DNA of 64,000 bases. Source: Escherichia coli. GTDB taxonomy: Bacteria; Pseudomonadota; Gammaproteobacteria; Enterobacterales; Enterobacteriaceae. Positions 11,999 through 15,727 of this stretch are shown piece by piece. The notes under the pieces were generated by a model. It saw only the letters and a list, made by a program, of their open reading frames with translations. It did no database searches and was not told the origin of the DNA. Within the stretch, counting starts at the first letter, position 1. Every line of letters begins with the position of its first letter. Made by a program: the position numbers and the translations under genes. The DNA is taken from NCBI RefSeq assembly GCF_036507355.1, contig NZ_AP027878.1. One strand, 5' to 3'.

Positions 11999-12015
11999 AA
12001 ATTAATTAGAGCAAT
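11999..12015. promoter_or_regulatory. C1 repressor operator upstream of ssb
   Basis: AAATTAATTAGAGCAAT, one mismatch to reverse complement of P1 operator consensus ATTGCTCTAATAAATTT. Confidence 0.6.
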
Positions 12016-12147
12016 AATGTATATCTTTGAAACGTAGCTAACAAGTGATTTGCATTATCCTGTGTCTTCTAAAGGGATCGAGTCAGTCGGTATTGGCTGT
12101 GAATGGGTGTTTGTCCTGGAGCGTAAAAATTCGCTTATGAGGTCTTT

Positions 12148-12705
12148 ATGAAGGGAAAAACAGCCGCAGGAGGCGGTGCAATTTGCGCTATCGCGGTGAT
12201 GATTACCATCGTAATGGGTAATGGCAATGTGCGAACCAACCAGGCGGGGCTTGAGCTGATTGGTAACGCTGAAGGTTGCCGACGTGATCCATACATGTGC
12301 CCGGCGGGGGTATGGACTGACGGGATCGGTAATACACACGGGGTAACGCCGGGTGTGCGAAAAACCGACCAGCAAATCGCCGCTGATTGGGAAAAGAATA
12401 TCCTGATCGCTGAACGCTGTATTAATCAGCACTTCCGGGGCAAAGACATGCCCGATAATGCCTTCAGCGCAATGACAAGCGCGGCATTCAATATGGGATG
12501 CAATAGCTTACGGACCTACTACAGCAAAGCGCGAGGCATGCGAGTCGAAACGTCCATCCACAAGTGGGCGCAGAAAGGGGAATGGGTGAATATGTGTAAC
12601 CATCTCCCTGATTTCGTGAACAGTAACGGCGTGCCCCTGCGAGGTTTAAAGATTCGCCGTGAAAAAGAACGCCAGCTTTGCCTGACGGGACTGGTCAATG
12701 AATAA
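12148..12705 (+). CDS. lyz: SAR endolysin (T4-lysozyme-like with N-terminal signal-arrest-release domain)
   Basis: 185 aa; hydrophobic N-terminus AICAIAVMITIVMG then lysozyme-like fold; matches P1 Lyz. Confidence 0.9.
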   Translation: MKGKTAAGGGAICAIAVMITIVMGNGNVRTNQAGLELIGNAEGCRRDPYMCPAGVWTDGIGNTHGVTPGVRKTDQQIAADWEKNILIAERCINQHFRGKDMPDNAFSAMTSAAFNMGCNSLRTYYSKARGMRVETSIHKWAQKGEWVNMCNHLPDFVNSNGVPLRGLKIRREKERQLCLTGLVNE

Positions 12706-12952
12706 ACTCCGGCAGCTCCGCCGACTTTCGACAATGAAGTTATCGCTGGCGGCGATAGTTTTCGACTCGATTTTCATGGCGGTATATGTGCTCAATGAGA
12801 CGTGGCCACTGGAACCGCTATTGTATGCAGGGCTTCGGCTGTGCCTGACATTTTTGAGCATGGCTGCAAGATTGATGCAGCAGAAAGAAACCGCTTCAGA
12901 TTGTCCACGCCGCGCGGTGCGCAAATATATGGCACGCAGGCGAAGGCGATAA
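12698..12952 (+). CDS. Small membrane protein overlapping lyz stop (possible lysis accessory)
   Basis: 84-aa ORF begins in ATGAATAA overlapping lyz stop, two hydrophobic segments, followed by a terminator. Confidence 0.35.
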   Translation: MNKLRQLRRLSTMKLSLAAIVFDSIFMAVYVLNETWPLEPLLYAGLRLCLTFLSMAARLMQQKETASDCPRRAVRKYMARRRRR

Positions 12953-12965
12953 TAGTTAACGAGAA

Positions 12966-12991
12966 CCCCGGCAGCTGCCGGGGTTATTTTT
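12966..12991. terminator. Intrinsic terminator between lyz region and pro
   Basis: CCCCGGCAGCTGCCGGGG palindromic stem followed by TTATTTTT. Confidence 0.65.
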
Positions 12992-12996
12992 GGTGG

Positions 12997-15727
<2,731 letters not shown>

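What the first reader, a model, noticed from the sequence alone, without database searches (positions are those of the whole stretch)
12698..12991. Unannotated-looking membrane ORF overlapping the endolysin stop
An 84-aa ORF with two hydrophobic segments starts in ATGAATAA overlapping the lyz stop and is followed by a clean terminator, consistent with a co-transcribed lysis accessory protein located with the endolysin rather than with lydA/lydB.
Basis: seen in the sequence. Interest (0 to 1): 0.35.

Follow-up and report, generated by a model that had tools for sequence, protein, structure and literature searches.

The report
Phage P1 pinholin gene lydD

Summary
An 84-aa ORF (12698-12952, +) starts in ATGAATAA across the lyz stop. 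It has two hydrophobic helices and ends 12 nt before a strong hairpin plus T-run (12964-12991).

It is not unannotated. This stretch is 100% identical to phage P1, where the ORF is lydD (AAQ13988.1, "putative holin"). Bednarek et al. 2022 (PMC9025707) showed that LydD speeds up lysis by the SAR-endolysin Lyz, kills cells when expressed alone, and cannot support the cytoplasmic lambda R endolysin. That makes it a pinholin, accessory to LydA in liquid culture.

My own checks agree:
- Substitutions in relatives with 75-83% identical LydD fall mainly on lydD codon position 3.
- The 84-aa length is kept.
- In all ten relatives with an intact or recognisable upstream gene, the homologue sits directly 3' of a SAR-type lysozyme.

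Three small additions came out of the work:
- LydD is a diverged, sub-threshold relative of Pfam DUF7940, an "unknown function" family whose members lie in the same position.
- The family has an invariant Asp in TM1 and a conserved Arg/Thr/Ser/Arg stripe on TM2.
- The overlapping lydE ORF is probably not a gene.

Verdict: real, correctly interpreted, already known, low interest.

The parts
12043..12061 (+). LPlyz, the P1 late promoter of the lyz operon (-22 box and -10)
   Evidence: Transferred from the annotation of AF234172 (L001 1544-1562, offset +10499). The sequence is 100% identical here. Not tested independently.
12148..12705 (+). lyz, the SAR-endolysin Lyz (185 aa)
   Evidence: Annotated as lyz. 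Pfam Phage_lysozyme 2e-22 and PHROG 7 endolysin 7e-69. The N-terminus MKGKTAAGGGAICAIAVMITIVMG is a Gly/Ala-rich hydrophobic SAR-type segment.
12698..12705 (+). ATGAATAA, the 8-nt overlap of the lydD start with the lyz stop (a translational-coupling layout)
   Evidence: Read directly from the sequence. In 9 of the 10 relatives examined the start overlaps the stop by 1-17 nt; in the tenth (L014) the genes abut with a 2-nt gap.
12698..12952 (+). lydD, the LydD pinholin (84 aa). TM1 is about aa 14-32 (nt 12737-12793), TM2 about aa 40-60 (nt 12815-12877), and the basic C-terminal helix aa 69-83.
   Evidence: 100% identical to P1 lydD, AAQ13988.1. PHROG 21930 'holin' 9e-59. Hydropathy and the AF2 model. 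Purifying selection. Experimental pinholin assignment in PMC9025707.
12964..12991 (+). Intrinsic terminator of the lyz-lydD operon: hairpin 12964-12985 and T-run 12987-12991, lying between the convergent lydD and pro genes
   Evidence: Terminator scan and RNA fold at -19.4 kcal/mol, z = -3.2. It is specific to the P1 group and absent from the diverged P1-like relatives.
12802..13017 (+). lydE, an annotated 71-aa GTG-start ORF ('putative antiholin') that overlaps lydD, the terminator and the end of pro. Probably not a functional gene.
   Evidence: Annotated in P1. No Pfam, PHROG or NCBIfam hit. In-frame stops in all 6 diverged relatives, and S:N of 8:37 in the lydE frame against 27:18 in the lydD frame. 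The terminator hairpin lies inside the ORF. No lysis phenotype (PMC9025707) and non-essential in a CRISPRi screen (PMC10695390).
1509..1772 (+). A lydC-like holin allele (87 aa), functionally linked but physically unlinked
   Evidence: 81% nt identity to P1 lydC. P1 LydC acts as a holin (PMC9025707).
1847..2176 (+). lydA, the main canonical holin of P1, about 10.5 kb from lydD
   Evidence: Exact match to P1 lydA.
2173..2616 (+). lydB, the antiholin that antagonises LydA
   Evidence: 99.1% identical to P1 lydB.
12997..14016 (-). pro (head processing), the convergent neighbour. It is context only and not part of the lysis unit.
   Evidence: Annotation of AF234172.

Best explanation
The ORF is lydD, the second gene of the phage P1 late lyz operon, and it encodes the pinholin LydD.

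Proposed mechanism:
1. Late in infection the LPlyz promoter drives one lyz-lydD transcript, which ends at the hairpin and T-run at 12964-12991.
2. The overlap of the lydD start with the lyz stop (ATGAATAA), together with a weak GGGA Shine-Dalgarno 7 nt upstream, couples lydD translation to that of lyz.
3. LydD inserts into the inner membrane as a two-helix hairpin with both basic termini in the cytoplasm.
4. LydD accumulates, then forms small lesions that collapse the membrane potential.
5. Depolarisation releases the membrane-tethered SAR domain of Lyz, and Lyz refolds to its active form in the periplasm and degrades the wall.
6. The LydD lesions are too small to pass a folded cytoplasmic endolysin.
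7. LydD works alongside the canonical holins LydA and LydC. It is accessory in shaken liquid culture of E. coli and sufficient with Lyz on plates.

Shown (by the literature or here): gene identity; two TM helices; co-location with lyz; faster lysis with Lyz; cell killing by LydD alone; no cooperation with lambda R; delayed lysis of lydD mutants.

Inferred: transcript structure and translational coupling; N-in/C-in topology; depolarisation as the trigger; oligomeric pore; and my suggestion that the conserved TM2 stripe R47/T51/S54/R58 and the TM1 residue D23 line the channel or pair within the membrane.
For: - Identity: 100% nt identity to P1 across 12000-13100, with lydD annotated at exactly these coordinates.
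- Family: PHROG 21930 'holin', 9e-59.
- Membrane architecture: two hydrophobic segments with basic termini and AF2 helices 3-32, 40-66 and 69-83.
- Experiments in PMC9025707: a lyz+lydD plasmid lyses faster than lyz alone; lydE makes no difference; the lydA lydD double mutant forms no plaques while lydA lydC does; lydD mutants lyse late; LydD does not support lambda R but lowers CFU; cell-shape changes match the pinholin/SAR pattern and switch when lydC and lydD are inactivated.
- Selection: substitutions concentrate on codon position 3, and the lydD frame is favoured over the lydE frame in the overlap.
- Synteny: every one of ten homologues with an intact or recognisable upstream gene lies directly 3' of a Phage_lysozyme gene. 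The nine with a complete N-terminus show a SAR-type N-terminus. These include Aeromonas Popoffvirus phages and uncultivated phages, where spanin-like genes follow.
- Conserved residues: D23 invariant; R47, T51 and R58 at 90% or more, all on one face of TM2.
Against: - Pore size and depolarisation by LydD have not been measured directly. The pinholin assignment rests on genetics and cell morphology.
- In liquid culture a P1 lydA lydC mutant does not lyse E. coli even though lydD is intact, so LydD is not sufficient in every condition.
- A CRISPRi screen scored lydD as non-essential.
- LydD lacks features of the phage 21 pinholin paradigm. It has four basic residues ahead of TM1 and no glycine zipper in TM2, so the molecular pathway may differ.
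- The AF2 model has only moderate confidence (pLDDT 71, pTM 0.38).
Confidence: 0.9

Rival explanations
1. LydD works like a releasin. It would interact directly with the SAR domain or the short basic cytoplasmic tail of Lyz and help it leave the membrane, rather than acting through general depolarisation by pinholes.
For: - Phage Mu releases its SAR endolysin with a dedicated membrane protein, gp25, instead of a holin (PMC9239132).
- LydD-family genes are strictly adjacent to SAR lysozymes.
- Lyz has basic residues (K2, K4) ahead of its SAR helix.
- LydD's conserved intramembrane Asp and Arg could mediate helix-helix contacts.
- Pore formation has never been shown directly.
Against: - LydD expressed alone reduces CFU, which fits membrane damage.
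- It has no DUF2730 match and has two TM helices, unlike the single-TMD gp25.
- The family pairs with two different SAR-lysozyme N-terminal types: the P1-like kind, and the vB_AsaM-56 / L012 kind. That argues against a specific partner interface.
Confidence: 0.06
2. LydD is an antiholin or timing regulator of LydA/LydC rather than a pore former. Some database records label the locus 'antiholin'.
For: - 'Antiholin' or 'putative antiholin' labels appear on several P1-like records.
- LydD's contribution depends on the other P1 lysis proteins and on growth conditions.
- Its strongly basic N-terminus resembles the change that turns the phage 21 pinholin into its antiholin form.
Against: - LydD with Lyz alone, with no other P1 protein, speeds up lysis.
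- Loss of lydD delays lysis rather than advancing it.
- lydA lydD mutants make no plaques.
- LydD alone is lethal.
- The 'antiholin' labels most likely belong to the overlapping lydE ORF.
Confidence: 0.02
3. LydD is a canonical large-hole holin that is redundant with LydA.
For: - It is annotated 'putative holin' or 'holin' in P1 records and in PHROG 21930.
- It has a class II-like layout of two TMDs with a basic C-terminus.
Against: P1 carrying lambda R in place of lyz does not lyse when only LydD is available. Co-expressing R and lydD from two plasmids also gives no lysis.
Confidence: 0.015
4. The ORF is a chance open frame with no product.
For: - About 22 ORFs of this length arise in shuffles of the window.
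- The Shine-Dalgarno is weak.
- Several pipelines do not call the gene.
Against: - Codon-position bias in substitutions, p about 1e-5 or less.
- Conserved length and conserved position.
- Homologues down to 23-45% identity.
- Mutant phenotypes.
Confidence: 0.005

Closest known systems
LydD of phage P1/P7 (AAQ13988.1; Lobocka et al. 2004 annotation; Bednarek et al. 2022, PMC9025707)
   Same: Identical sequence, coordinates and context: the second gene of the late lyz operon, with its start overlapping the lyz stop.
   Different: Nothing differs in this gene. The surrounding window is a P1-like variant, only 98.4% identical to P1 over 1205-25000 and carrying a different lydC allele.
S21 68, the pinholin of lambdoid phage 21 (the prototype pinholin)
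   Same: The functional class is the same: a small two-TMD protein with a basic C-terminus, encoded beside a SAR endolysin, that supports SAR endolysins but not cytoplasmic ones.
   Different: - No detectable sequence similarity.
- The gene order is endolysin then pinholin, not holin first.
- LydD has four basic residues ahead of TM1, where S21 68 has one. That makes exit of TM1 from the membrane, the key S21 step, unlikely.
- TM2 has no glycine zipper.
- LydD has conserved intramembrane D23 and R47.
Pfam DUF7940 (PF25612), a family of unknown function
   Same: - Homologues of LydD in Aeromonas phages and in uncultivated phages score 42-44 bits, or carry the precomputed DUF7940 label.
- They share LydD's two-helix layout, its conserved residues and its position 3' of a SAR lysozyme.
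   Different: - P1 LydD itself scores 22.8 bits, below the 27-bit cutoff.
- It carries an extra basic C-terminal tail of about 20 aa that most other members lack.
- The P1-group locus has no spanin genes downstream, whereas the non-P1 members do.
LydA and LydC of P1 (class II-type canonical holins)
   Same: Same phage and same process. They are also small two-TMD proteins with charged C-termini, and all cooperate with Lyz.
   Different: They are unrelated in sequence to LydD. They are encoded about 10.5 kb away at 1509-2176. They support the cytoplasmic lambda R endolysin, which LydD does not.
Mu gp25 releasin (DUF2730; PMC9239132)
   Same: It is a small membrane protein that promotes release of a SAR endolysin.
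   Different: gp25 has a single N-terminal TMD with a cytoplasmic domain and is not lethal in the way a holin is. LydD has two TMDs, no DUF2730 match, and kills cells when expressed alone.

Membership tests
P1 lydD (gene identity) | Sequence identity and the same position as the annotated lydD CDS of phage P1 | tested here: met
   100% identity over 1101 nt to AF234172, AF234173 and NC_005856. The lydD CDS maps to window 12698-12952.
Pinholin (functional class) | A small inner-membrane protein with TM helices and a charged cytoplasmic C-terminus | tested here: met
   Two hydrophobic segments, a C-terminal net charge of +8, and AF2 helices 3-32 and 40-66. These are predictions only.
Pinholin (functional class) | Encoded in the same lysis cassette as a SAR endolysin | tested here: met
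   It overlaps the stop of lyz, a SAR-type lysozyme. The same layout is found in all ten relatives examined whose upstream gene is intact or recognisable.
Pinholin (functional class) | Supports lysis by a SAR endolysin but not by a cytoplasmic (canonical) endolysin | not testable with these tools
   Shown by experiment for this exact protein in PMC9025707, through the lyz-to-lambda-R replacement and the two-plasmid test.
Pinholin (functional class) | Forms nanometre-scale lesions that depolarise the membrane | not testable with these tools
   Not measured directly in the literature I read either. Only a drop in CFU and changes in cell morphology were reported.
S21 68-type pinholin (phage 21 S family) | Sequence homology to S21 | tested here: not met
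LydD hits no Pfam holin family.
S21 68-type pinholin (phage 21 S family) | A SAR-like TMD1 that can leave the membrane, with few N-terminal positive charges, and a glycine zipper in TMD2 | tested here: not met
   Four basic residues lie in the 12 aa ahead of TM1. TM2 (LLYAGLRLCLTFLSMAARLM) has no Gly-zipper. Bednarek et al. made the same point. Whether TM1 actually exits the membrane cannot be tested here.
Pfam DUF7940 (PF25612) | Score at or above the gathering threshold of 27 bits | tested here: not met
   P1 LydD scores 22.8 bits, E = 1.4e-4, aligned over 57 of the 63 profile positions. JK004 LydD scores 21.1 bits.
Pfam DUF7940 (PF25612) | Homology to bona fide members | tested here: met
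   - A LydD-seeded profile retrieves proteins that carry the DUF7940 label, at E from 3e-23 to 1e-15.
- tblastn finds Aeromonas phage members at 2e-4, and they score 42-44 bits against DUF7940.
- They share D23, Y43, R47, T51 and R58.
PHROG 21930 (holin) | Significant full-length profile match | tested here: met
   E = 9.3e-59 over 1-84 of 84 positions.
Class II holin topology (two TMDs, N-in/C-in) | Two TMDs with both termini in the cytoplasm | tested here: inconclusive
   The positive-inside rule fits: N-terminus +4, C-terminus +8, and an acidic loop (E34, E39). No experimental topology data exist, and no dedicated TM predictor was available.
Releasin (Mu gp25, DUF2730) | DUF2730 homology, with a single N-terminal TMD and a cytoplasmic domain | tested here: not met
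   No DUF2730 hit, and two hydrophobic helices.

The most novel reading that the evidence does not exclude
LydD and its relatives in Pfam DUF7940 form a second, independently evolved class of pinholin, always encoded directly 3' of a SAR lysozyme, that works differently from the phage 21 paradigm. In this reading the strongly basic N-terminus keeps TM1 in the membrane. The channel, or the triggering switch, would depend on the invariant intramembrane Asp of TM1 (D23) and the conserved Arg/Thr/Ser/Arg stripe of TM2 (R47, T51, S54, R58). Bednarek et al. already noted that the mechanism may differ from S21. The links to DUF7940 and to these conserved residues are, as far as I could find, new (no paper mentions DUF7940).
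Probability: 0.35. Interest if true: 0.4.

Novelty: already known. Interest (0 to 1): 0.1.

Why it matters
For the genome scan this is a correct rediscovery. Reading the sequence alone recovered a real lysis gene that automated pipelines often miss or mislabel. Of 40 sampled P1-like plasmid records, 27 list only the lysozyme under the match, although PLSDB's gene table is incomplete.

The biology is already published: P1 pairs its SAR endolysin with an adjacent pinholin and also has unlinked canonical holins.

1. The experimentally characterised LydD gives a likely function to Pfam DUF7940, and to the "hypothetical" genes found 3' of SAR lysozymes in Aeromonas and uncultivated phages.
2. A short list of conserved charged and polar intramembrane residues is now available for mutagenesis.
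3. There is evidence that lydE should be dropped from annotations or marked as doubtful.

Tried and rejected
The retry returned only close P1-like relatives, because the word index limits its reach. The distant relatives came from tblastn against phage records and from the profile search of 1.8 billion representatives.
- The Lobocka et al. 2004 P1 genome paper is not in the library under the PMC id I recalled from memory. The original annotation is therefore cited through the GenBank record and through Bednarek et al.
- NCBIfam has no model for LydD or lydE.
- A profile search of PDB sequences gave 0 hits at E <= 10.
- A Foldseek search of the AF2 model against BFVD gave nothing below E = 6, which is expected for a simple helical hairpin. 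I ran no further fold searches.
- No paper mentions DUF7940.
- I considered a lambda-S-like dual-start motif (Met1 and Met13) that would give an antiholin and a holin from one gene. I rejected it because position 13 is M, L, I or V across the family, and the N-terminal extension ahead of it is itself conserved, (I/V)xNW(R/K)xxx(K/R). That pattern supports Met1 (12698) as the start.
- I considered lydE as an antipinholin and rejected it as probably non-coding.
- I could not measure the D23-R47 distance, because the model coordinates are not exposed to the Python sandbox. I argued only from residue depth and helical-wheel angles.
Full report
**1. The observation**

- lyz occupies 12148-12705 on the + strand and ends GTC AAT GAA TAA.
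- An ATG at 12698 opens an 84-aa ORF (12698-12952) in a different frame. The octamer ATGAATAA (12698-12705) therefore contains both the start of the small ORF and the stop of lyz.
- The product is MNKLRQLRRLSTMKLSLAAIVFDSIFMAVYVLNETWPLEPLLYAGLRLCLTFLSMAARLMQQKETASDCPRRAVRKYMARRRRR.
- Kyte-Doolittle windows of 17 residues give two hydrophobic segments, about aa 14-33 (peak 2.10) and aa 38-60 (peak 1.63).
- These are flanked by a basic N-terminus (+4), an acidic loop and a very basic C-terminus (+8).
- An AlphaFold2 model built on an 18-sequence family alignment (mean pLDDT 71, pTM 0.38) gives helices 3-32, 40-66 and 69-83.
- Twelve nucleotides after the stop there is a 9-bp hairpin with 7 G-C pairs (12964-12985), followed by T5 (12987-12991). 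It folds at -19.4 kcal/mol, z = -3.2 against shuffles.
- The finding's end coordinate, 12991, is the end of the T-run, not of the ORF.

An ORF of this length is not in itself beyond chance. Mononucleotide shuffles of the window contain about 22 ATG-ORFs of 84 aa or more.

**2. What it is**

Window 12000-13100 is 100% identical to phage P1 (AF234172, AF234173, NC_005856) on the reverse strand of those records. The ORF coincides exactly with the annotated CDS lydD (AAQ13988.1, "putative holin").

The annotation around it reads:
- upstream: the late promoter LPlyz (window 12043-12061) and lyz;
- overlapping its 3' half: lydE (12802-13017, "putative antiholin");
- convergent on the other strand: pro (12997-14016) and prt.

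So "unannotated-looking" is wrong for the reference genome. Annotation elsewhere is uneven, though. Several phage records omit the gene (for example OP279344 and vB_EcoM-Ro157c2YLVW). Among 40 sampled P1-like plasmids the features under the match are:

| Label under the match | Records |
|---|---|
| lysozyme only | 27 |
| hypothetical protein | 7 |
| holin | 3 |
| antiholin | 3 |

PLSDB's gene table is incomplete, so this count is a rough guide.

The window as a whole is a P1-like variant rather than the reference.
- Positions 1205-25000 are 98.4% identical to P1, and positions 1-1204 do not match.
- lydA (1847-2176, exact) and lydB (2173-2616, 99.1%) lie about 10.5 kb from lydD.
- The lydC-like allele (1509-1772) is only 81% identical to P1 lydC.

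**3. Published function**

Bednarek et al. 2022 (PMC9025707) studied exactly this gene. [quoted passage not shown] It has two predicted TM helices and a C-terminus with five arginines. Its start overlaps the end of lyz, and its 3' part overlaps lydE.

Their experiments show:
- A plasmid carrying lyz-lydD lyses faster and more completely than one with lyz alone. lydE makes no difference.
- P1 lydA and P1 lydA lydC mutants form plaques, but P1 lydA lydD does not.
- lydD mutants lyse late in liquid culture of E. coli and, for the insertion mutant, of Enterobacter cloacae.
- When lyz is replaced by the cytoplasmic lambda R endolysin, LydD contributes nothing.
- R plus lydD expressed from two plasmids gives no lysis, although lydD expression lowers CFU.
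- Wild-type P1 lysis follows the pinholin/SAR morphological pattern and switches to the canonical pattern in a lydC lydD mutant.

[quoted passage not shown] A CRISPRi screen scored both lydD and lydE as non-essential and lyz as essential (PMC10695390), which fits an accessory role.

(a) Selection.
- Diverged P1-like elements encode LydD at 75-83% identity. These are Cronobacter phage JK004 and Salmonella, Klebsiella and faecal contigs (L003, L005-L009).
- The protein is always 84 aa, its start always overlaps the lyz stop, and ssb always lies upstream. The downstream gene differs: a ProQ-like gene on the opposite strand replaces pro.
- Substitutions against P1, by lydD codon position, are 16/11/42, 19/11/42 and 21/12/48, with chi-square p from 2e-6 to 2e-5.

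(b) Family.
- PHROG 21930 "holin" matches at 9e-59.
- Pfam gives only a sub-threshold match to DUF7940: 22.8 bits against a cutoff of 27, but aligned across 57 of 63 profile positions.
- tblastn finds 70-aa homologues at 35-36% identity in Aeromonas Popoffvirus phages. These are true DUF7940 members at 42-44 bits.
- A profile search of 1.84 billion representative proteins finds only 18 clusters at E <= 1e-3, so the family is small.

(c) Synteny.
- I examined eleven further contexts. In ten of them the gene lies immediately 3' of a lysozyme gene. For nine of these the upstream gene has a Phage_lysozyme match (my scans or the precomputed labels). The upstream gene of L014 is truncated, has no Pfam result and is only recognisably Lyz-like by sequence.
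- The nine upstream lysozymes with a complete N-terminus begin with a few basic residues followed by a Gly/Ala/Ser/Thr-rich hydrophobic stretch, which is the SAR type.
- In nine of the ten the start overlaps the stop by 1-17 nt. In L014 the genes abut with a 2-nt gap.
- Outside the P1 group, spanin-like genes follow (Rz-like, DUF2514, DUF2570).
- The one context that could not be judged (L015) is cut off upstream and has a GTA_holin_3TM gene downstream.

(d) Conserved residues.
- D23 (TM1) and A57 are invariant. L15, A19, Y43, R47, L50, T51 and R58 are 90% conserved or more.
- R47, T51, S54 and R58 sit at 0, 40, 340 and 20 degrees on a helical wheel, forming a single polar stripe on TM2.
- D23 and R47 are 9 and 7 residues from the periplasmic ends of their helices, so they lie at similar depth. 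That they form an ion pair or line a channel is my inference and is not shown.
- The N-terminal extension ahead of residue 13 is conserved across the family, while position 13 itself varies (M/L/I/V). This supports 12698 as the true start and argues against a dual-start holin/antiholin arrangement.
- The basic C-terminal tail (aa 63-84) is present in the P1-like group and missing from most other members.

**5. How it most likely works**

1. LPlyz drives a late lyz-lydD transcript that ends at the terminator at 12964-12991.
2. The start/stop overlap, plus a weak GGGA 7 nt upstream, couples LydD synthesis to that of Lyz. Relatives carry a stronger GGAGG at the same place.
3. LydD inserts as an N-in/C-in hairpin, as the positive-inside rule suggests.
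4. It accumulates and then forms small lesions that dissipate the membrane potential.
5. Depolarisation releases the SAR anchor of Lyz, which becomes active in the periplasm. This part rests on established knowledge of P1 Lyz, summarised.

Shown: the genetic and physiological behaviour described in section 3. Inferred: the transcript structure, translational coupling, topology, oligomerisation, and which residues line the pore.

LydD is a pinholin by function but not a member of the phage 21 S family.
- It has four basic residues ahead of TM1, where S21 68 has one.
- It has no glycine zipper in TM2.

Bednarek et al. already noted that the pinhole-formation pathway may differ.

**6. Rivals**

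- A releasin-like mechanism, as in Mu gp25 (PMC9239132), is the only rival with some life, because pore formation has not been measured. It is disfavoured because LydD alone is lethal, because LydD has no DUF2730 match and a two-TMD architecture, and because the family pairs with two different SAR N-terminal types.
- The antiholin and canonical-holin readings are contradicted by the published phenotypes.
- A chance ORF is excluded by the conservation.

**7. lydE**

The overlapping 71-aa GTG-start ORF (12802-13017) is probably not a gene.
- It has no family match in Pfam, PHROG or NCBIfam.
- Its frame carries stop codons in all six diverged relatives.
- Substitutions in the overlap are 8 synonymous to 37 non-synonymous in its frame, against 27:18 in the lydD frame (Fisher p = 8e-5).
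- The terminator hairpin lies inside it, so terminated transcripts would lack its stop codon.
- Removing it has no lysis phenotype, and it is non-essential.

**8. Verdict**

The feature is the already known and experimentally characterised P1 gene lydD. Novelty is "already known" and interest is low.

The by-products are useful annotation notes rather than discoveries: the link between LydD and DUF7940, strict synteny with SAR lysozymes across a small family, conserved intramembrane Asp and Arg residues, and doubt about lydE.

Noticed in passing
window 12802-13017 (+): The annotated lydE ORF ('putative antiholin') looks non-coding. It has in-frame stops in all six diverged relatives. Substitutions are mostly non-synonymous in its frame (8 S to 37 N, against 27:18 in the lydD frame). 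It has no family hit. The lyz-operon terminator hairpin sits inside it, and its end overlaps the pro stop.
   Followed up: yes
L002 2489-2701, L004 1989-2201, L010-L013 and L016 (LydD homologues): P1 LydD is a diverged, sub-threshold relative of Pfam DUF7940 ('unknown function'). The family is small, with 18 clusters at 50% identity among 1.84 billion proteins. Wherever the upstream gene is intact, the member lies directly 3' of a SAR-type lysozyme, usually with spanin-like genes after it. No paper in the library mentions DUF7940.
   Followed up: yes
window 12764-12766 (D23), 12836-12838 (R47), 12848-12850 (T51), 12857-12859 (S54), 12869-12871 (R58): TM1 has an invariant intramembrane Asp, and TM2 has a conserved Arg/Thr/Ser/Arg stripe on one helical face. 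The phage 21 pinholin has no such feature. These residues may form an ion pair or line the channel.
   Followed up: partly
window 1-1204 and 492-1073 (+): The first 1.2 kb of the window does not match P1. A 193-aa ORF whose sequence looks like a Cin/Gin-family DNA invertase (judged by eye, no family search run) lies on the + strand, the same strand as lydC/lydA. In the P1 reference, cin is divergent from lydC. So the window is a P1-like variant (98.4% identical over 1205-25000) and not the reference genome.
   Followed up: no
window 1509-1772 (+): The lydC-like gene is a different allele from P1: 87 aa against 93 aa, and 81% nt identity over 217 nt. lydA next to it is 100% identical and lydB 99.1%. 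This fits the published remark that LydC is the one lysis protein that differs between P1 and P7.
   Followed up: partly
L003 2233-2766, L005/L007/L009 2733-3263, L010 2764-3315 (- strand): In diverged P1-like elements the gene convergent with lydD is a ProQ-family gene followed by a RepL-like gene, not pro/prt. In most of these elements it overlaps the lydD 3' end by 23 nt with no terminator hairpin between them; in L010 there is a 14-nt gap. So the 'clean terminator' is specific to the P1 group.
   Followed up: partly
plasmid and phage records: Annotation of this locus is inconsistent across P1-like records. lydD is variously missing, 'hypothetical protein', 'holin' or 'antiholin'. RefSeq records NC_042128, NC_050152, NC_031129 and NC_050153 name the neighbouring pro/proB gene 'tail fiber protein', which looks like a mis-annotation.
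   Followed up: no
L011 1651-1980 (+), L012 1366-1944 (+), L016 2-340 (+): In some non-P1 members of the family an additional small or medium ORF with no Pfam hit lies immediately upstream of the SAR lysozyme. It could be a second holin or another lysis component. I did not examine it.
   Followed up: no
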